Virus record (IMG/VR): IMGVR_UViG_3300045988_057894 | Coordinates: 1-54,712 of that record | Length of the DNA stretch: 54,712 bases | Origin: a virus | Reading direction: 5' to 3' (one strand) | Shown here: positions 1 to 32,746 of the stretch, piece by piece | Position numbering within the stretch: position 1 is the first letter of the stretch | Layout: the number at the start of each line of letters is the position of its first letter | Notes under the pieces: generated by a model | Told to the model about the DNA's origin: nothing | Seen by the model: only the letters and a program-made list of their open reading frames with translations | Database searches by the model: none | Translations under genes and position numbers: made by a program

Positions 1-119
1 AACAGTGCGTCAGATGCGAAAGGCATCGCATTGGTGGGGTCGTTCGTCCAATAGGCGGCAATCGCAGCCGGGGCAAAGACTTCCTTAAGATTCAGTGCCA
101 TGTTGTTTTACCTCTTATT
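1..119. repeat. Terminal direct repeat identical to 54594-54712 (overlap of a circular assembly)
   Basis: Both copies read aacagtgcgtcagatgcgaaagg...gttttacctcttatt. Bases 1-101 duplicate the 5' end of the capsid gene on the minus strand. Confidence 0.9.
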
Positions 120-462
120 AAGCGTTCACGCTGATGTTGTTACGGCAGAAGATGCCAGGGATGGCGGTCTTGAGTGCAGTAATCGCATCAGAATCATAGG
201 TAAAGCCGGAGCTTGCAGCGGCCTTCTTGGTGTCGATAACGCCACAAATCAGCAGGGAAGCGTTGGGATTCTCTGCCGGGTAAACGTCATACAGCAGAAT
301 GCCGTCTGCGGTGGCAGAGGTTGCTTTCTTGCCAGCCAGTGTCATGGGATAGCCAGCCTTAACCGTAGCAGTTTCGGTCACGGTAAAAGGGATGGCGGTG
401 TAGTCATTGGAAGCAAGGATGGTATCGTTGATTCCGTTGACCGTGTTTCGGGTAAACTTCAT
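118..462 (-). CDS. Head decoration protein-like (114 aa)
   Basis: AAGGAGG 5 nt before the ATG at 462. Small Ala/Thr/Gly-rich protein between scaffold and major capsid genes, the usual decoration-protein slot. Confidence 0.55.
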   Translation of the reverse strand: MKFTRNTVNGINDTILASNDYTAIPFTVTETATVKAGYPMTLAGKKATSATADGILLYDVYPAENPNASLLICGVIDTKKAAASSGFTYDSDAITALKTAIPGIFCRNNISVNA

Positions 463-475
463 GTTTTCCTCCTTG

Positions 476-1057
476 TTAATGGAAAGCACTCATTGCGTCA
501 CTCGATGCCTTAGAAGTATTTGCGTTCTGCTGTGCAAGGCTCTTAGCAAAAGCTACGCCCTCACTGTCAGAGCTATCCTTCCCATTCGCACCCGGAGGTG
601 TAGGCATATCCTTCAGCAGAGAAGCCTTGTAAGCGGTGTCGTGGGCGGTCATAAACTCCGACTGGAACTTAAATACCTTGTCTATTTCACCGTCAGCCAG
701 TGCAGATGCAGCTTTGCCAGCCAGTTCAGCGTCATAACCCTGTGCAACAAACTTTTCACGGTAAGATGCAAGGGTCTTTTCCTTGACGAGGTTTTCCTTG
801 TCGGCAGTCAGGGCTTCAATCTGTTTCTGCATCTCTGCCAGCTTGTCAGCCTGTTCCTGTGCAGCGTTCTCGTCATCGGTGCGCTTTGCCTTGAGCTGCT
901 TCTTGTACTCGGCAGCTTCGCCGTTAGCTTTCGTCACGGCGTTGCGCAGCTTCTCAACCTCTGCGCTAGGGTCTGCAACCTTTTCAAGCGCAGAAATGAT
1001 TTCATCGGCGGTCATGCCCTCTTTGTAAGCATCACCAAGCAACACATTGAGTTTCAT
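476..1057 (-). CDS. Capsid scaffolding protein
   Basis: GGAGGA RBS before the ATG at 1057. Acidic, coiled-coil-rich sequence (EKLRNAVTKANGEAAEYKKQLKAK...) located between portal and capsid. Confidence 0.65.
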   Translation of the reverse strand: MKLNVLLGDAYKEGMTADEIISALEKVADPSAEVEKLRNAVTKANGEAAEYKKQLKAKRTDDENAAQEQADKLAEMQKQIEALTADKENLVKEKTLASYREKFVAQGYDAELAGKAASALADGEIDKVFKFQSEFMTAHDTAYKASLLKDMPTPPGANGKDSSDSEGVAFAKSLAQQNANTSKASSDAMSAFH

Positions 1058-1168
1058 ATCGTTAATTTCCTCCTGCGTTTTTTTACCGTTGCTTCCCTGC
1101 AACGCTGCGAAATTTGTATCCCGGCTTCCCTGCCGGAATATATCAGCCCGAAAATTCGGGGTGATTCT

Positions 1169-1399
1169 TTATTCCTTTAGATAAATTCTTTTGTACGGTT
1201 CAATGCCACTATCCAAAATGGATTTTTCACGCGCCGAATTTCGGTCAGGGTGCGTCCATTTGAATTTTCCACATTTCGTGCAAATATACTCGCACTCCAT
1301 TTCGCGAGGTTCGTTTCCGTTGATACCGTGCGTCCAATGCCAACGAGAAAGCGTATAGTCATGTTTGCAAAACAACTGTTTCCAAAAATCACGCATCAT
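1169..1399 (-). CDS. Small Cys/His-rich hypothetical protein
   Basis: ORF overlapping the portal stop. GGAG lies 6 nt before the ATG at 1399. Contains CKHD...CEYICTKCG. Start choice is uncertain. Confidence 0.4.
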   Translation of the reverse strand: MMRDFWKQLFCKHDYTLSRWHWTHGINGNEPREMECEYICTKCGKFKWTHPDRNSAREKSILDSGIEPYKRIYLKE

Positions 1400-2903
1400 C
1401 TTTTTCTCCATCCGCATTGTTTGGCTGTTTATCAACCGAGTTCTCGGCATTCGTGTCGGGAACACCCTGTTTAGGTTGTTCCTGCGGTTTCGGTGCCTTC
1501 CCATCCTCGCCCAGCTTGCCAGCGGCAATCAGGAAGGGCTTGCTCATTTCGTAAGCAGCCTGCGGGTCAGGGAACAGACCGGGCGTAGTGAACGCCAACT
1601 GCGGGTCAATCGGCTGCTGAATCATCTGCGCAAAAATCTGAACCTTGCTCTGCTGGTTGTCGTACTGACGGCGTGGCAGCTTGATGTTGATGTCACTTGC
1701 CATCAGCTTAGAACCAGCCGTATCGCGCAGGATTTTCAGCATTACGGACAGGCTCTGACGTTCAGCATACTTGAACATATTCTCGTACTGCTGCGCCCTT
1801 GCTTCGGTGTGGTTCCAGCCGTTACGAACGATAACTGCGCCCACGTTGTCGGACGTTGCGTTCTCACTGCCAGTGGCACTAGGCATGGCAGTCAGACTGC
1901 GGTATACATTCAACATGGAATCAAGCAGCGTCTGGCTCTGCTGCTGGTCAAGCTCGTTTGCAAGCTGCGCGACCGAAGCTGGCTGACCGGAAGATGACTT
2001 CAGGCACATTGCACCCATAGCCTTAACAGCTTTTAAGGCTTCTTCATCCACAAGGCAATTGGTAAACACCATGATGGACTGGATGAACTGTGCCACACCG
2101 TCCAAACGGTTGCTTTCAAGGTCGTTGATGGCATCCAACACAGGAATAGCAGGCTCAAACAGACCCATCCGCTCCGGGTTCAACTTGTATTCGACCATCG
2201 GTAGCATTCCGAGAGAATGGCTCTCCATTTTCGTAACCTTGCCGTTGTCGATTTCAAAGTACTGGTTCGGCGTATACACACAAATCAGGTCGTTCAGGTC
2301 ATTCTGATAATTGCGTGGAATGTGCAGCACGTTGGCGATGGGCTTGTGCCCGATACCAGAGTTGTAAATCACATACGCCATATCCGGGTCTGGAACGTCC
2401 ACCAGCAGGGGCGTTTCATCTGGGTAGTTGCCGTTGTACCCCTTGTCAGGGAGAACAATGCGGTATCCCTGTCCGCACTCCAACATCCACTGCCAGAGCC
2501 ACCGATCAAGCGCATCCTTGCCCTCGTACTGCAAGGCGTTGGATAGGCGGGCGATTTCCTCACCGTCACCTGTTGCTGTTTCAGACCGCACATAAGAGCA
2601 AGGAGTGCCGCTCATGTAGCCTGTGTAAAAGCCCACGCACTCATTGGCGTGGTTTTCTACAATGCGGTTAGTGATTTCAGCGTGGTACTCTTTCGTGCGA
2701 TGGAGGACGGGCTGACTACCCAAGTAGTAGTTGTGTAGAAAGCGAATCTCGTTCTTGTTCAGCAGATGAATAGGCTCTGCCTTGCCCATGACCACTTTCA
2801 GAATGTTCGTCCGATTGATTTCCGTCTCCGGCGTTTCAATCGGTCTGCGTCCGGTCAGTGGCTCATTTAAAAAGCCGCCAACAACCATCTGATACTCAGC
2901 CAT
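1389..2903 (-). CDS. Portal protein (SPP1 gp6-like by motif recollection)
   Basis: 504 aa with AAGGAGG before the ATG at 2903. Size and position between terminase and scaffold fit. N-terminal FLHNYYLG...HRTKEY region resembles gp6-type portals. Confidence 0.85.
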   Translation of the reverse strand: MAEYQMVVGGFLNEPLTGRRPIETPETEINRTNILKVVMGKAEPIHLLNKNEIRFLHNYYLGSQPVLHRTKEYHAEITNRIVENHANECVGFYTGYMSGTPCSYVRSETATGDGEEIARLSNALQYEGKDALDRWLWQWMLECGQGYRIVLPDKGYNGNYPDETPLLVDVPDPDMAYVIYNSGIGHKPIANVLHIPRNYQNDLNDLICVYTPNQYFEIDNGKVTKMESHSLGMLPMVEYKLNPERMGLFEPAIPVLDAINDLESNRLDGVAQFIQSIMVFTNCLVDEEALKAVKAMGAMCLKSSSGQPASVAQLANELDQQQSQTLLDSMLNVYRSLTAMPSATGSENATSDNVGAVIVRNGWNHTEARAQQYENMFKYAERQSLSVMLKILRDTAGSKLMASDINIKLPRRQYDNQQSKVQIFAQMIQQPIDPQLAFTTPGLFPDPQAAYEMSKPFLIAAGKLGEDGKAPKPQEQPKQGVPDTNAENSVDKQPNNADGEKDDA

Positions 2904-2920
2904 GCGTTCCTCCTTTCTGA

Positions 2921-2972
2921 CAAAATAAAAAGCGCAGCAAGACAAACCTGTTAAGGTCTATCTCACTGCGCT
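2921..2972 (-). terminator. Rho-independent terminator just upstream of the portal gene
   Basis: Minus strand AGCGCAG...CTGCGCT stem followed by TTTTTATTTT. It closes the tRNA / small-ORF transcription unit. Confidence 0.5.
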
Positions 2973-2995
2973 TACAACTGCGCTTCAAAAGCTAT

Positions 2996-3184
2996 TCAGT
3001 TCTTGAACTTCGGTACGGAGACCCATGTATCTTTTGGAAGGTTGGAATCTCCAATTGTAATCCAATGGCAAAGAGGGCACAGAAGAGAGAACTTACCTTC
3101 CACTTCGCCAAGATAACGTCCGCAATCACACGGATTGCCGTTTGCGTCTTTCCGAGGACGCTTGCATCGTACTTTTGCTACCAT
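2996..3184 (-). CDS. Small zinc-ribbon-like hypothetical protein (62 aa)
   Basis: GAAAGGAG RBS. Two Cys pairs (CDCG, CPLC). Confidence 0.45.
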   Translation of the reverse strand: MVAKVRCKRPRKDANGNPCDCGRYLGEVEGKFSLLCPLCHWITIGDSNLPKDTWVSVPKFKN

Positions 3185-3352
3185 CTGTGCTCCTTTCGTT
3201 GGATTTCTGGAAACAGGCTGTTTGGCACAGACCCGTCAGAAGCCACCGGGAAACTATTCGCACTTCCGGTCGTGCTATTCTCCGCCCGGAGAAAGCCATT
3301 GCAGCCTTTACATTCAGTTGTCGGACAGACGTAAACGGGTCGGATGCAATTT

Positions 3353-3430
3353 TGGTGCTACATAATGGATTTGAACCAATGTATGCTCGGATATGAGCCG
3401 AGTGCTCTAACCATACTAAGCTAATGTAGC
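3353..3430 (-). tRNA. tRNA with CAT anticodon (elongator Met or Ile2-lysidine type), CCA encoded
   Basis: Hand-folded cloverleaf. Acceptor GCTACAT/ATGTAGC, D arm GCTT..GAGC, anticodon arm CTCGG-CTCATAT-CCGAG, T loop TTCAAAT (one T:T mismatch in the T stem), then ACCA. Confidence 0.8.
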
Positions 3431-3557
3431 ATAAAAACCCGGCTTGATTGGTTAACCGCCGCTCTTTGCAATGTCATGTCTAAACATCACATTGAGAGCC
3501 GGGAATAGCGGTGGAGGTTTTGGAGAATAAGTCCATGCAAAGCTAGGTAGTTGGTTG

Positions 3558-3639
3558 TGCTGCGTAACGGAATCGAACCGTTGCTTGCCAGCCATGGGGG
3601 GAGACAGGCTGGCATTCCCCAAACAATTGGAAACGCAAC
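3558..3639 (-). ncRNA. Aberrant tRNA-like element
   Basis: Acceptor GTTGCGT/ACGCAGC and a canonical T arm AACGG-TTCGATT-CCGTT. The anticodon position holds a 7-bp stem (GCCAGCC/GGCTGGC) with a 13-nt loop TGTCTCCCCCCAT. D arm is TTCCAA-TTGT-TTGGGG. Confidence 0.4.
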
Positions 3640-3783
3640 ATATAAAGTCCGGTGAAGGTGAAAGAGTGAGAAAACCTCCACCGGCGAAAGGAGGAATATG
3701 CTTGTTGACACGCACGCGAGTAAAATGACAAACCCCGCGTGCAAGCTATTCCTTTAAGGGAAGCCACAAAACTTCCTGCGTAC

Positions 3784-3813
3784 ATTATAAGCCTTGTCAA
3801 GTGGTAAAATCAA
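3784..3813 (-). promoter_or_regulatory. Sigma-70-type promoter facing the ORF-free region and tRNAs
   Basis: Minus strand TTGATT, 18-nt spacer, TATAAT, located just downstream of the terminase stop. Confidence 0.5.
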
Positions 3814-3852
3814 ATAAATAGACCCAGCGAACACAATATATTGTGTTTTTCA

Positions 3853-5520
3853 TCAAAATGGCCTCTTGACAGGCTCAATTTTACTGATTCCGTTATATAA
3901 TTCATCGGCAAGCTGTGCCAGACTATCCGGTGCATCATCGTGCGGAACTTTGCCAAGCTGCGTGAACATCGTCACCTGTTCCATGAACGCCTTGTACTCT
4001 TTCGACTGGTGCTTTTCATCAAGGAAATAGAACCGTTTGATGTCCGGCGCATACTGGATGATTCTTGACAGCTTGCTTTGACCACTTGGCGCACGCTGGC
4101 TACGAACAGAGCAGTGATAGCCCTGCTGCCGGAGCTGGCTGTCCACTACGTCACAATATTCATCACCGCCGTTGTTGGCTTCGCCACGCATCACGTTGAT
4201 TTTGTGCTGGATAATTTTGCCCACAACTTCCGGTCTGGTCACAGTCTTGTCTCCGTTATTGAACACAAGGTCAGGAATGAACACGGCATCTCCGTACACA
4301 TAAGCGATAGGACAGGCGGTGAAGTCACCGCCACCCCATGCAATATCCATGACCATGAGCTTGCGATCGGGCTCTCCATCCGGAAGAATGCCGTTGTAAT
4401 ACCGTAATTCATCGGCAGGGAACAGCAGACCTTCACGCACATAAGGCTTGCCCATGTACTTTGCCCACCATGTTGCATCGTCAATACTGGCTTTCATATC
4501 GGCATAGTAGGCATCGTCAAAGCCAACGCCATAGTCATAATTGAAGTTGCTGTGTCCGTTCTCGTCTACCGCAGGAATCACACGGAATCTGTACTTTGGG
4601 TTGTCCGCATACTGGTTCTGAATGCGTCCCAGAGGGTCAAGCACGTTCCAGCGCGTACCGACCATCAGCTCTAATGCGCCTTGCTTTTTACGGTCTTTCA
4701 GCTGGTTCAGATAGGCATCGTACTTGTTATTCAGACGCTCAACGTTCAGGCTTTCCTCCAAGTCCTCAATTAGGTCATCGCTGTACAGAACGCCGCCCTC
4801 GCCAATTTCAACAGCACCAGTTAGCGTACCGCCGATGGAACGACAGGTCAGGGTTGGGAAGCGCTTCTTTCGGTTCAGGTCAACGCTTTCGTCCTTTGCG
4901 CTCTTATCCACAAGCTGAACGTCAGGAAAGATTTTGCCCCAGTTGTAGGTTACAGGGTCGGTGATGATGGACAGCACTTCACCATAGAAGCCGTTTGTCA
5001 GCTTGTCGGAATGTCCGCTCATAACCGATGCAACATCAGGGCGGTTGCCCATTAACCATGTGATAAAAAATATACAGAGCGTACTTTTTCCAGTTCTCGG
5101 GGGCTGACTGACCCCCAGAAATTCTACACGATGGAAAAACAAGTCCTCTAGGTCACGAACCAGCGTCAAAAGCACCTTGCGTCTCGGCTGATAGAACTTC
5201 TTCTCCGGCGCACGATTCCATTCAAGGTAAATGCAATAGCTGTCGAACACATCTTTTGCTTCAAACAGGTACGTCCGGCTGATAATATCATAGACCTTCG
5301 CCACGTCCTCGCCTGTTTTCATCTTGCCCATCATGGTTGCACAGACGGAGCGCAGCTCACCAGAGTATTTGTAGGCATCGAACCGTTTGTCCTGCGGCAG
5401 AGCGTCTTTCAGGTTCACCACCGCCTGAAACCAGTCCTCATAGACCTGTGCTTCGGTCGGATTCTGCTTTGCATACGCTTTGATGCTATCAATGATGGCG
5501 ATACACTGCTTTGGCTGCAT
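3853..5520 (-). CDS. terL: Terminase large subunit
   Basis: 555 aa. Walker-A-like PPRTGKST, a C-terminal nuclease-like block (MDIAWGGGDFTACPIAYVYG), and the portal gene downstream. Confidence 0.88.
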   Translation of the reverse strand: MQPKQCIAIIDSIKAYAKQNPTEAQVYEDWFQAVVNLKDALPQDKRFDAYKYSGELRSVCATMMGKMKTGEDVAKVYDIISRTYLFEAKDVFDSYCIYLEWNRAPEKKFYQPRRKVLLTLVRDLEDLFFHRVEFLGVSQPPRTGKSTLCIFFITWLMGNRPDVASVMSGHSDKLTNGFYGEVLSIITDPVTYNWGKIFPDVQLVDKSAKDESVDLNRKKRFPTLTCRSIGGTLTGAVEIGEGGVLYSDDLIEDLEESLNVERLNNKYDAYLNQLKDRKKQGALELMVGTRWNVLDPLGRIQNQYADNPKYRFRVIPAVDENGHSNFNYDYGVGFDDAYYADMKASIDDATWWAKYMGKPYVREGLLFPADELRYYNGILPDGEPDRKLMVMDIAWGGGDFTACPIAYVYGDAVFIPDLVFNNGDKTVTRPEVVGKIIQHKINVMRGEANNGGDEYCDVVDSQLRQQGYHCSVRSQRAPSGQSKLSRIIQYAPDIKRFYFLDEKHQSKEYKAFMEQVTMFTQLGKVPHDDAPDSLAQLADELYNGISKIEPVKRPF

Positions 5521-5612: not shown

Positions 5613-6188
5613 TCACCTGTTCTGTTCAGCAATCCGATACCATGTCTGGCGGGTCACGCCAAGCTGTTTGGCAGCGTCCGTGACCGTGAGAATGCGCTTC
5701 TCCACCTGCTCATGGAGAACGTCAAAGAGATTACGGTCATACTCGGTGGGCTTGCGGCCTTCCCTGTAATCGGGGCGCTGACTAGCAATCTTCTTGCCCT
5801 CTCTGGTGCGTTCAACAATCATATCACGCTCAAACTGGGCAAACACAAGGAACATACCTCTCATAGCCCTACTAGCAGGGGTGTTGTCCATAACACCAAG
5901 ATTCAGCACGTTCACCCGGATTCCTTTTTCAATCCATGAATCAATCAGTTCATACCCACCGACAAGGCTTCTGGCAACACGATCTAGCTTTGTCACAACG
6001 ATTGTATCACCGCTCTGGACTTCCGCTTCTAGCTTGTCCAGTTCCTTGCGTTCCATTTTAGTTCCAGTATATACCTCTTTGAAAATCTTAGTTGCGCCAG
6101 CAGCCTTAAGGGCTTCTTCCTGCGATTCAAGGCTGTTGCCGTCAATCGCCTGACCGGCGGAACTGACACGAGCGTAACCGTAAATCAT
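5613..6188 (-). CDS. Small serine recombinase (resolvase/invertase type)
   Basis: 191 aa. N-terminal YARVSS catalytic-serine motif and a C-terminal HTH ([10 protein letters not shown]). Too short to be a large serine integrase. Confidence 0.88.
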
Positions 6189-6204
6189 TCAGGTTCACCG
6201 TCCT

Positions 6205-6432
6205 TCACTCTATGTCGATGCCCTCGCAATTTTTGAACTGCGCATCACGAGGAACAACTACAATTTTATATCCCATCATATTCAGCATTTCGTTTAGCTT
6301 ATTAACGCTAATATTTTTTTGAGAAAGACGTTCGCTTAAAGTTGGCTGTTTAATTTTAAGCCTGCTGCAAAGCTCCGCTTGTTTTATGTCCTCTTTTCTC
6401 ATAACCTCTTTTACTGCTTCTCCTGCTTTCAT
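6205..6432 (-). CDS. XRE-type HTH protein
   Basis: IKQAELCSRLKIKQPTLSERLSQKNISVNKL helix-turn-helix. Sits 16 nt upstream of the recombinase gene. Confidence 0.65.
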   Translation of the reverse strand: MKAGEAVKEVMRKEDIKQAELCSRLKIKQPTLSERLSQKNISVNKLNEMLNMMGYKIVVVPRDAQFKNCEGIDIE

Positions 6433-6546
6433 TTTTTGCATCCTCTCTTTCTTGATGCTATTATATCAGATGAACCCTATAAAATCAAGACATTTCTGAT
6501 ATTTCCACAATTTCCCAATGAACGCCCTTTATATTATATATAAATA

Positions 6547-30877: not shown

Positions 30878-31957
30878 ATGCCAAAAATATCAGACAATAA
30901 CCTTGTCGAGAAAAGCAAATCCCTTGTTTGGGCGAAATTTAGGGACTACACCGCAGGAGAACTTCGGTTGTTGGAGGTTTACCTATCAAGAATAAATCCG
31001 AGAGACCCAAACAGCAGCCGTGTGGAGTTCTCGTTGGCAGAGTACAGAGACCTGCTGGGGTTAAAAAGCCTTGATGCACGAAGGATTGAGCCGCAGATCA
31101 AGCACTTTCTAGGCAATACAGTGTCGATTCCCATTGACAAAGAGAAGGGCACGTTTGAGAGTTTTGTCCTTTTCACAAGGGCAAAACTGGATTATGTGCC
31201 GGAAACAAGGTCTTATGTTGTGGCAATCACTTGCAACCCTGATCTTCGCCCCATCTTTTTTGATATTGCCGAAAGCGGGTACGTTCGGTATCGTCTGCGC
31301 TACACATCACGGATGAAATCACAGTACAGCATCCTGCTTTATTCTATTCTTCGGGACTGGTTGAATATGGACAACAAACCGCATGAAATCAGTCTGAAAA
31401 GGCTAAGAGAACAGCTCGGTGCGATGGAAGCAAGCTACGATGTTTACAAGAACCTTCGTAAACGAGTGCTTGATGTTGCAGTGGATGAAATCAATGCTGT
31501 GTCTGACATCGTGGTGACCTATGAACCGGTTCTTGTGGCACGAAAGGCCGTGGCAGTCAAGTTTAAGCCCAAAATTAAAGCGTCTGAGACACTGATTGAA
31601 GCTCAGGCAAGCGAAATATCGACCGAACCTCAAAAATCCACCAGAAAGCCCCGTAGAAGCGGATACGAGGATTTTGACTGGTCTGTGTGTGACGAGCTGG
31701 AAAAGCAAGACTGCATTGACGTGGCAAAAGTGGTTGAGAAGTGGATGAAGAAAGAGCATCCAGAAATCAAGCTGCCGAGACGCAGAGAAGCGGTTTACGA
31801 GACGGTAAAGGCAGCGTATAAGGATATTTTGTCTTTGGACAGGTCTCCGTTCCCCGACAGACCTGTTGGTTATCTGATTAGAAGCGTGGACAAGGCAGGT
31901 ATCGTAGACAAGTATATGCCAGCGTTTTATTCCATTGAAGCGCTTAACAGCAAATAA
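30878..31957 (+). CDS. Plasmid replication initiator, Rep_3 (RepB/RepE-like) family
   Basis: TAAGGAGG RBS. N-terminus NNLVEKSKSLVWAKFRDYTAGELRLLEVYLSRI, then YSILLYSILRDW, ISLKRLREQLG, YKNLRKRVLDVAVDEINAVSDIVVTYEPV. This pattern fits iteron-binding initiators, and iterons lie directly upstream. Confidence 0.8.
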   Translation: MPKISDNNLVEKSKSLVWAKFRDYTAGELRLLEVYLSRINPRDPNSSRVEFSLAEYRDLLGLKSLDARRIEPQIKHFLGNTVSIPIDKEKGTFESFVLFTRAKLDYVPETRSYVVAITCNPDLRPIFFDIAESGYVRYRLRYTSRMKSQYSILLYSILRDWLNMDNKPHEISLKRLREQLGAMEASYDVYKNLRKRVLDVAVDEINAVSDIVVTYEPVLVARKAVAVKFKPKIKASETLIEAQASEISTEPQKSTRKPRRSGYEDFDWSVCDELEKQDCIDVAKVVEKWMKKEHPEIKLPRRREAVYETVKAAYKDILSLDRSPFPDRPVGYLIRSVDKAGIVDKYMPAFYSIEALNSK

Positions 31958-31972
31958 AGAAAGAGTGATAAA

Positions 31973-32746
31973 ATGGCAAAAATCATAGCTATCGCCAACC
32001 AGAAGGGCGGCGCAGGCAAAACCACCACAAGCACCTGTCTGGCTGGCGCGTTGCAGTTGCTTGGCAAGAAAGTCTTACTGGTAGACTGCGATGCCCAGTG
32101 CAACGCAACGGACACTTACGGCGCACAGACAGAGGACGTATGTACTTTGTTCGATGTAATGACCCGTCAGGGCACGGTAGAGGAAGGAATCCAGCACTGC
32201 GAAGCTGGTGACATTCTGCCGTCAGACAATGCATTGAAGGACATTGACGAGCAGCTTGTCCGGGACATGGGCAAGAACTTCCGGCTGCGTGAAGCACTGG
32301 AATCCGTGTCTGAACAGTACGATTACATTGTTTTGGACACTCCCCCGCAGCTCGGTCTTGCGCTTGTAAACGCTCTGATTGCCGCCAACAGCATCATCGT
32401 GCCCATTACGGCAGACCGATATGCACTGGCTGGTCTGAGCCAGCTTTCGCAGACCATTGGCGACGTTCGCAGATACTTCAACCCGACCTTGAAGATTGAA
32501 GGTCTGCTTCTGAACCAGTACAAGAGCCGTGAGAACCTGTCTAAAGAGGTCGTGGAACAGCTCCCTGTGATTGCACAGAGCATGGGCACAACCCTGCTGG
32601 ACGTGAAAATCAGACCGTCTATGGGCGTTCGCAAGTCACAGGCAGAACGACACAGCCTGTTTAGTGGTGACACGGCAAAGAGCACCAGTGCAGAGGACTT
32701 CAAGGCGTTGGCGCAGATGATTGTGAAAGGAGAAGAAAATGAGTAA
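31973..32746 (+). CDS. parA: ParA/Soj-type partition ATPase
   Basis: Deviant Walker A IAIANQKGGAGKTTTS and VLLVDCDAQCNAT. 257 aa with no N-terminal HTH (type Ib-like). Confidence 0.9.
   Translation: MAKIIAIANQKGGAGKTTTSTCLAGALQLLGKKVLLVDCDAQCNATDTYGAQTEDVCTLFDVMTRQGTVEEGIQHCEAGDILPSDNALKDIDEQLVRDMGKNFRLREALESVSEQYDYIVLDTPPQLGLALVNALIAANSIIVPITADRYALAGLSQLSQTIGDVRRYFNPTLKIEGLLLNQYKSRENLSKEVVEQLPVIAQSMGTTLLDVKIRPSMGVRKSQAERHSLFSGDTAKSTSAEDFKALAQMIVKGEENE

What the first reader, a model, noticed from the sequence alone, without database searches (positions are those of the whole stretch)
3185..3852. 670-bp ORF-free, self-contained transcription unit inserted between terminase and portal
The usually tight terL-portal junction is interrupted by a unit with its own promoter (TTGATT-18-TATAAT, 3813-3784) and terminator (2972-2921).

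The unit contains:
- about 150 nt of leader
- a tRNA-like element
- about 125 nt of spacer
- a tRNA (CAT anticodon)
- about 170 nt more of non-coding sequence
- a 62-aa zinc-ribbon ORF

A 13-nt perfect long-range complement, CGGTGGAGGTTTT (about 3669-3681) and AAAACCTCCACCG (about 3507-3519), brackets the tRNA-like element. A GACCCGT/ACGGGTC pair brackets the distal part.

Large ornate phage-borne RNAs of the ROOL/GOLLD class are known to sit next to tRNAs in Firmicutes prophages. This locus is worth testing as such an RNA or as a new one.
Basis: partly seen in the sequence, partly recalled or inferred. Interest (0 to 1): 0.65.

Follow-up and report, generated by a model that had tools for sequence, protein, structure and literature searches.

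The report
Phage tRNA operon with pseudo-tRNA
Between the terminase and portal genes of a very common human-gut phage sits a self-contained, non-coding unit: a small tRNA operon holding one real tRNA, a conserved tRNA-shaped relic that cannot decode, and a pseudoknot; it is not a ROOL/GOLLD-type giant RNA.

Summary
Window 3185-3852 (RNA on the minus strand) is non-coding, has its own sigma-70-type promoter and ends at a strong terminator after a 62-aa Cys-rich ORF. It holds a tRNA(CAU) and a tRNA-shaped element.

In 143 distinct alleles from about 160 related gut-phage contigs, local helices show strong covariation (94.8% of cells paired against 36-46% in slid controls). Supported elements are three leader hairpins, the tRNA-like cloverleaf, a newly found H-type pseudoknot just 5' of the tRNA, the tRNA itself and trailer hairpins.

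- No ROOL, GOLLD, tmRNA or other Rfam family matches.
- The 13-nt long-range complement and the GACCCGT/ACGGGTC pair show no covariation; the 5' arm of the 13-mer forms a covarying local hairpin instead.
- No long-range helix was found.
- Segments reassort as independent cassettes.

The best reading is a moron-like accessory tRNA operon. The tRNA-like element is a duplicated, anticodon-less paralogue of the neighbouring tRNA, probably kept as an RNase P/Z processing or tRNA-mimic module. This is a new variant of a known kind, of moderate interest. Function and host are unknown.

The parts
3830..3847 (-). 18-bp perfect palindrome AACACAATATATTGTGTT between the terL stop and the promoter. Possibly an operator or a weak terL 3' hairpin. 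Present only in the major promoter class.
   Evidence: Read. Not conserved in the minor promoter classes.
3784..3813 (-). Sigma-70/sigma-A-type promoter: -35 TTGATT (3813..3808), 18-nt spacer, -10 TATAAT (3789..3784). The inferred start site is near 3777.
   Evidence: 10 of 12 consensus positions. Both hexamers and their spacing are kept in all four diverged promoter classes. The -10 positions are invariant in A1.
3759..3776 (-). P1, a 5'-terminal hairpin GGAAG..CUUCC.
   Evidence: 95% paired. The divergent class has GGAGU..ACUCC, read from A1.
3693..3752 (-). P2, a long hairpin with a sequence-conserved apical loop UUUUGUCAUUUUUAC.
   Evidence: Helices 2-4, with 10 pairs changed on both sides. 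Loop invariants are listed.
3686..3696 (-). Single-stranded UUCCUCCUUUC, resembling the anti-Shine-Dalgarno sequence. It is an 11-nt perfect complement of the portal ribosome-binding site (2907-2917) and a 9-nt complement of the small-ORF SD.
   Evidence: inverted repeat I4. The CUCCUUUC core is present in nearly all alleles. No covariation test is possible because both sides are invariant.
3649..3684 (-). P3, a local hairpin CCGGUGGAGG / CCUUCACCGG with a CU-rich loop UUUUCUCACUCUUUC.
   Evidence: 97.8% paired with 5 covarying pairs. 7 covarying pairs and 137 cells in 143 alleles.
3558..3639 (-). tRNA-like element: invariant acceptor stem GUUGCGU/ACGCAGC plus A73 and an ACAAC tail, with no encoded CCA. 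It has a D arm, a 7-bp 'anticodon' arm with an 11-13-nt C-rich loop, and a canonical T arm.
   Evidence: 92% paired, 12 pairs changed on both sides, acceptor invariant; no consistent anticodon; own CM gives 96 bits, and the same CM hits the neighbouring tRNA at 36 bits; similarity to the neighbouring tRNA beats 1000/1000 shuffles. Not called as tRNA by the Rfam model or by default ARAGORN.
3438..3512 (-). H-type pseudoknot domain, ending 7 nt before the tRNA 5' end. Stem a is ACCGCU (3512..3507) / GGCGGU (3460..3455). Stem b is CCCGGCU (3503..3497) / AGCCGGG (3444..3438). A hairpin is inserted between them and the third loop is A-rich. A conserved CCUC(C) motif (3517..3513) precedes it.
   Evidence: 99.4% paired, 7 pairs changed on both sides, 0/500 shuffles reach the observed covariation score or percentage paired.. 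Many invariant unpaired bases.
3353..3430 (-). True tRNA with anticodon CAU and encoded CCA. In other alleles this slot holds three kinds of CAU tRNA, a UAU (Ile) version, a CGU (Thr) tRNA, or anticodon-less tRNA-shaped variants.
   Evidence: 62.5 bits.
3278..3350 (-). Trailer hairpins: AUUGCAUCC/GGCUGCAAU (3350..3298) and UUCUCC/GGAGAA (3293..3278). They travel as a cassette with the tRNA type.
   Evidence: Helices 21-23, with 8 pairs changed on both sides; 11 cassette types.
3185..3280 (-). The most conserved block of the unit, the 5' UTR of the small ORF. It has hairpin ACCGG/CCGGU (3270..3245), hairpin 3241..3205 and the SD GAAAGGAG (3197..3190).
   Evidence: Only one cluster among 143 alleles, mean distance 0.07. 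Helices 25-28 are almost invariant. An alternative fold pairs GUUUC with the SD.
2996..3184 (-). 62-aa Cys-rich, zinc-ribbon-like ORF. Two allelic families (62 aa and 60 aa) share the motif C-x-C-[GN]-RYLGEV[DE]G..C-x-x-C.
   Evidence: No Pfam or PHROG hit. Only close homologues exist. AlphaFold pLDDT is 60.
2921..2973 (-). Intrinsic terminator: a 20-pair stem followed by UUUUAUUUUG, ending 18 nt before the portal ATG (2903).
   Evidence: Conserved across alleles, mean distance 0.07.

Best explanation
The unit is a moron-like accessory operon inserted at the terL-portal junction of an abundant human-gut phage that is probably a phage-plasmid.

A constitutive-type sigma-A promoter drives a transcript of about 850 nt that stops at a strong terminator just before the portal gene. 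The transcript is a chain of independently folding modules:
- a 5' leader of three hairpins;
- a tRNA-shaped but anticodon-less paralogue of the neighbouring tRNA;
- an H-type pseudoknot spacer;
- a true tRNA, usually CAU, probably an AUA- or AUG-decoder;
- trailer hairpins;
- a highly conserved 5' UTR;
- a tiny Cys-rich protein gene.

Shown: the promoter and terminator signals and their conservation, the non-coding nature of the region, the helices and their covariation, the paralogy of the two tRNA-shaped elements, the cassette-like reassortment, and the absence of the unit from more distant relatives.

Inferred: host RNase P and RNase Z cut at both tRNA-shaped modules. This would release the functional tRNA, the pseudo-tRNA, the leader and spacer RNAs, and the small-ORF mRNA. 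The pseudo-tRNA would then be retained for its tRNA shape, as a processing site or tRNA mimic, and not for decoding.
For: - Promoter and terminator found, and conserved across diverged alleles.
- Non-coding: frames are broken in most alleles.
- Structure: 161 pairs, 94.8% of cells paired against 36-46% in slid controls; 65 pairs changed on both sides against 23-30; 0/500 shuffles.
- tRNA-like cloverleaf: covariation in the D, anticodon and T arms with an invariant acceptor stem. Its CM also hits the neighbouring tRNA, E=2e-7. Its acceptor stem and 5' flank are nearly identical to those of the neighbouring tRNA.
- No consistent anticodon.
- Slot 2 also tolerates anticodon-less tRNA shapes in 13 of 143 alleles.
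- Position -1 before both tRNA-shaped elements is U in at least 90% of alleles.
- One allele lost the pseudoknot and tRNA by recombination between the paralogous 3' acceptor ends.
- Segments reassort in more than 50 combinations.
- Relatives with about 50% TerL identity have a tight junction. A relative with 62% identity carries a different 2-kb insertion at the same place.
- This matches the published definition of a moron (PMC2629481).
Against: - No expression or end-mapping data exist. Processing by RNase P/Z is inferred from shape only.
- A plain tRNA operon does not explain several features. The tRNA-like acceptor stem and its ACAAC tail are invariant in every allele in which the element was found (142 of 143 unique alleles; the search pattern found none in L099), while the true tRNA varies. 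The pseudoknot is conserved at unpaired positions too. CCUCC-type motifs recur.
- The host is unknown, so benefit through codon supply cannot be assessed. AUA is rare in the phage, 4.9 per 1000 codons.
- The terminator directly upstream of portal means the late transcript must read through it. The unit could therefore also have a regulatory role.
Confidence: 0.55

Rival explanations
1. A single large ornate RNA of about 600 nt, either of the ROOL/GOLLD class or a new class. The tRNA and tRNA-like elements would be embedded domains of one global fold.
For: - Strongly negative folding z-score for the 606-nt stretch, -6.6.
- Many covarying helices and one pseudoknot.
- Length is conserved at about 965-1004 nt despite 66-98% identity.
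- ROOL and GOLLD lie near tRNAs in prophages (PMC5737381).
Against: - No ROOL, GOLLD or other Rfam hit at E<=10.
- No long-range helix shows covariation among 143 alleles.
- The proposed long-range helices fail the covariation test.
- Segments reassort independently.
- The pseudoknot plus tRNA can be deleted.
Confidence: 0.07
2. A cis-regulatory leader. The anti-SD-like tracts (UUCCUCCUUUC, the P3 loop CUCUUUC, ACCUCC) and the conserved 96-nt 5' UTR would sequester the ribosome-binding sites of the small ORF and/or portal. Cleavage at the tRNA-shaped modules, or binding of the Cys-rich protein, would release translation.
For: - 11-nt perfect complement between 3686-3696 and the portal RBS at 2907-2917.
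- The full-length MFE pairs the leader tract with the small-ORF SD.
- The 3' block is the most conserved part of the unit and can fold to occlude the SD.
- The CUCCUUUC core is kept in nearly all alleles.
Against: - Any CCUCC tract is complementary to any strong Firmicute SD, so the match carries little information.
- Both partners are invariant, so there is no covariation (84% paired, 0 pairs changed on both sides).
- The 8-mer is not enriched: 3 on this strand in 54.7 kb.
- The distance in cis is 500-780 nt.
Confidence: 0.15
3. A tRNA mimic or decoy. The anticodon-less tRNA-shaped RNAs would titrate or evade host tRNA-targeting defence nucleases or other tRNA-binding proteins, extending the known role of phage tRNAs in counter-defence.
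For: - Selection keeps the tRNA shape but not an anticodon.
- The acceptor stem is invariant, which suggests sequence-specific recognition by a protein.
- Slot 2 also holds anticodon-less variants.
- Phage tRNAs with altered anticodon loops are reported to evade anticodon nucleases (PMC10264068, PMC11555353).
Against: - No defence system or host is known for this phage.
- The published cases are decoding-competent tRNAs.
- No test is possible with these tools.
Confidence: 0.1
4. A late-gene control region like lambda pR'-6S RNA-tR'. A constitutive promoter would make a terminated leader transcript unless an antiterminator lets RNA polymerase run into portal and the structural genes. The structured leader would be the antitermination or pause element.
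For: - A near-consensus promoter, and a strong terminator ending 18 nt before the portal ATG with no room for another promoter.
- Hairpins with conserved loops lie immediately after the start site.
Against: - terL lies upstream of the promoter, so the packaging and head genes would be split between transcription units.
- About 850 nt including two tRNA-shaped genes and an ORF is far longer than known leader RNAs.
- No Q-, N- or LoaP-like gene was identified next to it.
Confidence: 0.1

Closest known systems
Phage morons: independently expressed gene(s) inserted into a late operon (definition in PMC2629481)
   Same: Own promoter and own terminator. Inserted between two morphogenesis genes that are adjacent in related phages. 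Contents are in rapid flux: extra genes in some alleles, and a different 2-kb insert in a relative with 62% TerL identity.
   Different: The main cargo is RNA (a tRNA, a pseudo-tRNA and a pseudoknot) rather than a lysogenic-conversion protein. Expression from the prophage has not been shown.
Phage tRNA gene clusters with co-transcribed stable non-tRNA RNAs, e.g. the T4 tRNA region with species 1 and 2 RNAs (my own knowledge, not checked here). Also bacterial tRNA-mRNA co-transcripts such as the E. coli tRNA-tufB operon (own knowledge).
   Same: tRNA(s), tRNA-related stable RNAs and an mRNA on one precursor, presumably resolved by RNase P and 3' processing.
   Different: No sequence relation. 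Here the extra RNA is a clear paralogue of the adjacent tRNA, with an expanded C-rich loop in place of the anticodon loop and an invariant acceptor stem.
ROOL (RF03087) and GOLLD (RF01998) RNAs
   Same: Phage- or prophage-borne, adjacent to tRNAs, several hundred nucleotides, function unknown (PMC5737381; PMC12286853).
   Different: No covariance-model match. No multistem-junction architecture or long-range helices. The modules recombine independently.
tRNA-like processing or mimic modules: MALAT1 mascRNA, gammaherpesvirus-68 tRNA-miRNA units, the bacterial Y RNA (YrlA) tRNA-like domain, and plant-virus TLS with an upstream pseudoknot domain (own knowledge)
   Same: A tRNA-shaped fold without decoding function, with the acceptor and T arm kept. 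It may be recognised by RNase P/Z or the CCA-adding enzyme.
   Different: None of these is homologous. YrlA replaces the anticodon arm by a Ro-binding stem. Here there is a full cloverleaf with a large C-rich loop, inside a DNA-phage tRNA operon.
Phage tRNAs that evade tRNA-targeting defences through anticodon-loop changes (PMC10264068; PMC11555353)
   Same: Phage-encoded tRNA variants whose anticodon loops depart from the host type.
   Different: Those tRNAs still decode. The element here has an 11-13-nt loop and no consistent anticodon.

Membership tests
ROOL RNA (RF03087) | Match to the Rfam covariance model | tested here: not met
   No hit at the gathering threshold on the window. None at E<=10 on 2850-3950. 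None at E<=0.5 on seven divergent alleles.
ROOL RNA (RF03087) | [quoted passage not shown] | tested here: not met
   Only local helices plus one local pseudoknot are supported. No long-range helix shows covariation.
GOLLD RNA (RF01998) | Match to the Rfam covariance model | tested here: not met
   no hit.
tRNA (RF00005): the slot-2 element at 3430..3353 | Cloverleaf scoring above the Rfam gathering threshold, with a 7-nt anticodon loop | tested here: met
   62.5 bits against a threshold of 29. ARAGORN calls anticodon CAU.
tRNA (RF00005): the tRNA-like element at 3639..3558 | Match to the tRNA model and a 7-nt anticodon loop with a defined anticodon | tested here: not met
   No RF00005 hit at E<=10 or in seven other alleles. 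The loop is 11-13 nt. With introns allowed, ARAGORN gives Asp, Gly, Thr or Val depending on the allele.
tRNA-like structure: tRNA-shaped, non-decoding | Acceptor stem plus T arm with the GUUCRA T-loop, and D and anticodon arms maintained by covariation | tested here: met
   92% paired, 12 pairs changed on both sides. The CM cross-hits the true tRNA, E=2e-7.
tRNA-like structure: tRNA-shaped, non-decoding | Recognition by RNase P, RNase Z or the CCA-adding enzyme | not testable with these tools
   Needs in vitro cleavage assays or end-mapping.
tmRNA | tRNA-like domain with a tag reading frame, as detected by ARAGORN or Rfam | tested here: not met
   no tmRNA found.
Moron | Inserted into an operon whose flanking genes are adjacent in related phages | tested here: met
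   Maintenon and MT836094 have terL, then at most a 46-aa ORF, then portal within about 140-200 nt.
Moron | Own promoter and own terminator | tested here: met
   Consensus matches that are conserved across diverged alleles. This is sequence evidence only.
Moron | Expressed independently of the late operon, e.g. from the prophage | not testable with these tools
   No transcript data are available.
HDV-like or other small self-cleaving ribozymes (considered for the pseudoknot) | Rfam model match, and a conserved catalytic C in the strand joining to P2 | tested here: not met
   No Rfam hit. The joining strand lacks any C in several allele classes (read).

The most novel reading that the evidence does not exclude
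The invariant-acceptor pseudo-tRNA, the sequence-conserved pseudoknot and the CCUCC-bearing leader would together form a new family of phage RNAs that exploit tRNA shape rather than decoding.

One form of this reading: RNase P/Z 'punctuation' releases small RNAs with anti-SD seeds that tune translation of portal and late genes. Another form: the pseudo-tRNA acts as a decoy for tRNA-binding host factors or defence nucleases, in one of the most abundant phage(-plasmid) lineages of the human gut.
Probability: 0.2. Interest if true: 0.65.

Novelty: new variant of a known kind. Interest (0 to 1): 0.4.

Why it matters
The phage lineage is very common in human-gut viromes: at least 595 IMG/VR contigs encode this TerL.

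It carries a tRNA-shaped RNA under clear purifying selection for shape, and for an exact acceptor-stem sequence, but not for an anticodon. Next to it is a pseudoknot conserved at unpaired positions as well.

If these turn out to be more than processing scaffolds, they would add a case to the open question of why phages carry tRNAs and tRNA-like genes: codon supply, counter-defence, or regulation. The many natural alleles already available form a ready-made mutational series for experiments.

If they are only processing scaffolds, the locus is an ordinary accessory tRNA operon.

Tried and rejected
1. ROOL, GOLLD, tmRNA, ribozymes, riboswitches and 6S: Rfam at the gathering threshold on the whole window, at E<=10 on the region and at E<=0.5 on seven divergent alleles gave only tRNA.

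3. An exhaustive helix scan over 143 alleles for any long-range covarying stack: none. It did reveal the local pseudoknot.

4. Hidden protein genes: all mechanical ORFs are broken in most alleles. A 19-codon plus-strand ORF behind a perfect SD (GAAAGGAGGAATATG) loses its ATG or its frame in other allele classes (read).

5. Trans targets in the phage. The complement of the P3 loop matches the parA ribosome-binding site 14/15, and the P2 loop matches 12/15. The parA site is unchanged in two contigs whose P3 loop differs, so this is probably chance. The complement of the C-rich loop and the invariant 12-mer have no other site in the window.

6. Other copies of the tRNA-like element or of the 3' block in the window or in distant relatives: none.

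7. Host or prophage context. The tRNA-like pattern gave 0 hits in 185,579 species genomes. TerL found only two MAG relatives at 62-67% identity. There is no PLSDB match.

8. HDV-like topology of the pseudoknot: rejected, as there is no conserved catalytic C and no model hit.

9. Function of the small protein: no Pfam or PHROG hit and only close homologues. The AlphaFold model was too poor (pLDDT 60) to search. A resemblance to Mu Com recalled from memory was not supported by Pfam.

10. An attempt to link the element to the published IMG/VR candidate structured RNAs failed, because no supplementary files are held for that paper.
Full report
**Setting.** The genes in window 1-5520 run on the minus strand. 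terL is 5520..3853 (PHROG terminase large subunit, E=3e-55). Portal is 2903..1389 (PHROG portal, E=6e-43). Between them lie 668 nt without a conserved ORF (3852..3185), a 62-aa Cys-rich ORF (3184..2996) and a terminator. The RNA strand is the minus strand.

**Checking the observation.**
- The consensus scan finds one promoter-like site, TTGATT-18-TATAAT at 3813..3784, and a 20-pair terminator at 2973..2930 followed by a T-run.
- ARAGORN and Rfam find one tRNA, anticodon CAU, at 3430..3353 (62.5 bits) and nothing else in the 54.7-kb window.
- The 606-nt stretch folds far better than its shuffles, z = -6.6.
- The 13-nt perfect complement exists at 3509-3521 / 3671-3683.
- GACCCGT and ACGGGTC exist at 3341..3335 and 3236..3230.

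**Relatives.** TerL retrieves at least 595 IMG/VR contigs, nearly all from human-gut samples and mostly 55-60 kb. The 80 best-scoring loci share 98-99% TerL identity; a second query returned 80 further loci of the same lineage. I extracted the terL-to-portal interval from 157 loci and obtained 143 distinct alleles.
- Interval length is 965-1004 nt in most alleles, although identity to the window ranges from 66% to 98%.
- Flanking terL and portal DNA is 90-95% identical.
- The interval is therefore not hypermutating. It exists as several old, diverged allele classes.
- Phages with about 50% TerL identity (Clostridium phage Maintenon, MT836094) have a tight junction with at most a 46-aa ORF.
- A Bacillota MAG with 62% TerL identity has a different 2-kb insertion at the same place.
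- The unit is thus a lineage-specific insertion at a junction that tolerates insertions.

**Non-coding nature.** The seven mechanical ORFs of 57-89 aa inside the region keep an open frame in only 4-47 of 143 alleles. The 62-aa ORF is intact in 134.

**Promoter and terminator.** The segment upstream of the start site falls into four diverged classes. Across them the spacer sequence changes, but -35 TTGAyT and -10 TAnAAT stay 17-18 nt apart. The terminator segment is conserved, mean distance 0.07.

**Structure.** I derived a structure domain by domain with RNAalifold on 75 alleles and counted pairs.
- 161 pairs in 30 helices; 94.8% of cells form standard pairs, against 36-46% when partners are slid by 1-3 columns.
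- 65 pairs have changes on both sides, against 23-30 in the slid controls.
- The covariation score is 0.194 against about 0.05, and 0 of 500 column shuffles reach the observed values.
- Supported elements in 5'-to-3' order: P1 (3776..3759); P2 (3752..3693), a long hairpin whose apical loop UUUUGUCAUUUUUAC is conserved in sequence; a single-stranded UUCCUCCUUUC tract (3696..3686); P3 (3684..3649); the tRNA-like element; a spacer domain; the tRNA; two trailer hairpins (3350..3278); and a nearly invariant 96-nt block (3280..3185) that ends in the SD of the small ORF.

**The tRNA-like element (3639..3558).**
- Its acceptor stem GUUGCGU/ACGCAGC, discriminator A and following CAAC are invariant in every allele in which the element was found (142 of 143). 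The D, 'anticodon' and T arms covary: 12 pairs changed on both sides in a 24-sequence alignment, 92% paired against 37-44% slid.
- The T-loop is canonical (UUCGAUU or UUCAAAY).
- The anticodon position holds a 7-bp stem with an 11-13-nt loop that contains a C-run in most allele classes (CCCCC in four of the five classes; the L002 class has only CCC).
- Neither the Rfam tRNA model nor default ARAGORN calls it. With introns allowed, ARAGORN assigns Asp, Gly, Thr or Val depending on the allele, so there is no real anticodon.
- A covariance model of the element scores 96 bits on itself and 36 bits (E=2e-7) on the neighbouring true tRNA, and finds nothing else.
- In most alleles its acceptor stem differs from that of the neighbouring tRNA (GUUGCAU/AUGCAGC-A-CCA) at one pair, and the 5' flanks share CCGGGCUUU(A)UAU. 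The global similarity beats 1000 of 1000 shuffles.
- It is therefore a duplicated copy of the adjacent tRNA that lost decoding but has been kept in shape.

**The tRNA slot.** Across alleles the second slot holds three unrelated CAU tRNAs, a UAU (Ile) version of one of them, one CGU (Thr) tRNA, and non-decoding shapes in 13 of 143 alleles. The non-decoding shapes are a 3-nt loop, a GAAA tetraloop or a 10-nt insertion. Rfam still scores two of these as tRNA-like, at 51 and 47 bits. The CAU/UAU alternation on one backbone suggests an AUA-decoding tRNA-Ile2, but I could not settle Met against Ile. AUA is rare in the phage, 4.9 per 1000 codons.

**A pseudoknot.** A helix scan over 143 alleles found two crossing helices in the spacer.
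- Stem a is ACCGCU (3512..3507) with GGCGGU (3460..3455). Stem b is CCCGGCU (3503..3497) with AGCCGGG (3444..3438).
- A covarying hairpin lies between them, and an A-rich 7-11-nt third loop follows.
- Counted on A1, the domain is 99.4% paired, has 7 pairs changed on both sides, and no shuffle reaches the observed covariation score or percentage paired (one of 500 reaches the count of pairs changed on both sides).
- Many unpaired bases are invariant.
- It ends 7 nt before the tRNA 5' end.
- Its strand order resembles HDV-like ribozymes, but no Rfam model hits it and the joining strand lacks a conserved C, so I do not file it there.

Tested directly.
- The 13-mer helix is 82% and 69% paired (its two parts), with no more covariation than shuffles: 3 pairs against a shuffled mean of 6.9 for the three test helices together.
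- Where the 5' arm changes (for example CCGGCGAAUG), its local partner changes with it (CAUUCGCCGG), while the distal arm stays CCUCCACCG.
- The GACCCGT/ACGGGTC pair is 73% paired, and its 3' arm lies in a conserved local hairpin.
- No other long-range helix with covariation exists.

**Modularity.** I clustered nine segments separately. The counts were 4 promoter, 8 leader, 5 tRNA-like, 12 spacer, 7 tRNA, 11 trailer, 1 3'-block, 4 ORF and 2 terminator types, combined in more than 50 arrangements. One allele lost the pseudoknot and tRNA by recombination between the paralogous acceptor 3' ends. Others gained a second small gene after the Cys-rich ORF. This is cassette behaviour. It does not fit a single co-evolving global fold.

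**Comparison with known families.**
- ROOL and GOLLD are excluded by covariance models and by architecture (PMC5737381).
- The unit meets the sequence-level criteria of a moron (PMC2629481): insertion into an operon that is contiguous in relatives, with its own promoter and terminator.
- Its content is a tRNA operon. The nearest analogues are phage tRNA clusters that also yield stable non-tRNA RNAs, and bacterial tRNA-mRNA co-transcripts (my own knowledge).
- Non-decoding tRNA shapes used as processing signals or mimics are known elsewhere, such as mascRNA, MHV68 and YrlA (my own knowledge). Phage tRNAs with altered anticodon loops have been linked to evasion of anticodon nucleases (PMC10264068, PMC11555353).

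**Mechanism.** The most likely mechanism (0.55) is a sigma-A-driven precursor cut by RNase P and RNase Z at both tRNA-shaped modules. This would deliver a tRNA plus by-products and the small-ORF mRNA, with the transcript ending at the terminator so that portal is not expressed from this promoter. The signals, folds, paralogy and modularity are shown. The processing and the reason the pseudo-tRNA is retained are inferred.

Three features are left unexplained:
- the invariant acceptor stem and ACAAC tail;
- the sequence-level conservation of the pseudoknot and of the 96-nt 5' UTR;
- the recurrent anti-SD-like tracts, including an 11-nt perfect complement to the portal ribosome-binding site. That complement carries little information, because any CCUCC tract matches any strong SD.

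These features keep the regulatory and decoy readings open.

**Limits.**
- There are no transcript data and the host is unknown.
- All alleles come from one phage lineage, so shared ancestry inflates the shuffle statistics. The slid-partner controls do not suffer from this.
- More distant homologues could not be sought, because the public collections can only be scanned with exact patterns.

Noticed in passing
window 30878-32746 (+); 5613-6441 (-): The phage encodes a Rep-like initiator and a ParA ATPase, so it is probably a phage-plasmid. A Hin-type DNA invertase and an HTH protein sit directly upstream of terL. No terS lies next to terL.
   Followed up: partly
window 31959-31981 (+) versus 3660-3674 and 3721-3735: The parA ribosome-binding site and start, GAAAGAGTGATAAAATGGCAAAA, is complementary 14/15 to the P3 loop and 12/15 to the P2 loop of the RNA. 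The parA site is unchanged in two contigs whose P3 loop differs, so this is probably chance.
   Followed up: partly
window 3830-3847: An 18-bp perfect palindrome AACACAATATATTGTGTT lies about 20 bp upstream of the -35 hexamer. It could be an operator. It is present only in the major promoter class.
   Followed up: no
window 2996-3184; loci L005, L018, L023, L027, L059, L062: The small Cys-rich ORF has two diverged allelic families (62 and 60 aa) that share C-x-C-[GN]-RYLGEV[DE]G..C-x-x-C. Neither matches any Pfam or PHROG family. Some alleles carry an extra 121-aa Cys-rich gene or a 63-aa gene before the terminator.
   Followed up: partly
loci L038, L049, L074, L076, L079 (tRNA slot): The same tRNA backbone occurs with anticodon CAU in some contigs and UAU in others. 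This suggests the 'Met' call is really an AUA-decoding tRNA-Ile2. One further allele among the 143 unique alleles (locus not identified) carries tRNA-Thr(CGU) instead.
   Followed up: partly
locus L108: A 792-nt allele lacks the pseudoknot and the true tRNA. The junction lies in the near-identical 3' acceptor ends of the pseudo-tRNA and the tRNA, which indicates deletion by homologous recombination between the paralogues.
   Followed up: partly
locus L044 (about 3395-3414): A 19-nt tandem duplication of the 3' half of the P1 hairpin (GAAGTTTTGCAGCTTCCTCT) lies at the 5' end of the transcript.
   Followed up: no
locus L165 4662-6650: A Bacillota MAG prophage with 62% TerL identity has a 2-kb insertion with two unrelated ORFs at the same terL-portal junction. 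This suggests the junction is a recurrent insertion site.
   Followed up: partly
window 3209-3220 and 3600-3611: CAGCCUGU(U/C)UCC occurs both in the pseudo-tRNA anticodon arm and in the conserved 3' hairpin. The match is at the level expected by chance for a 1-kb region.
   Followed up: no
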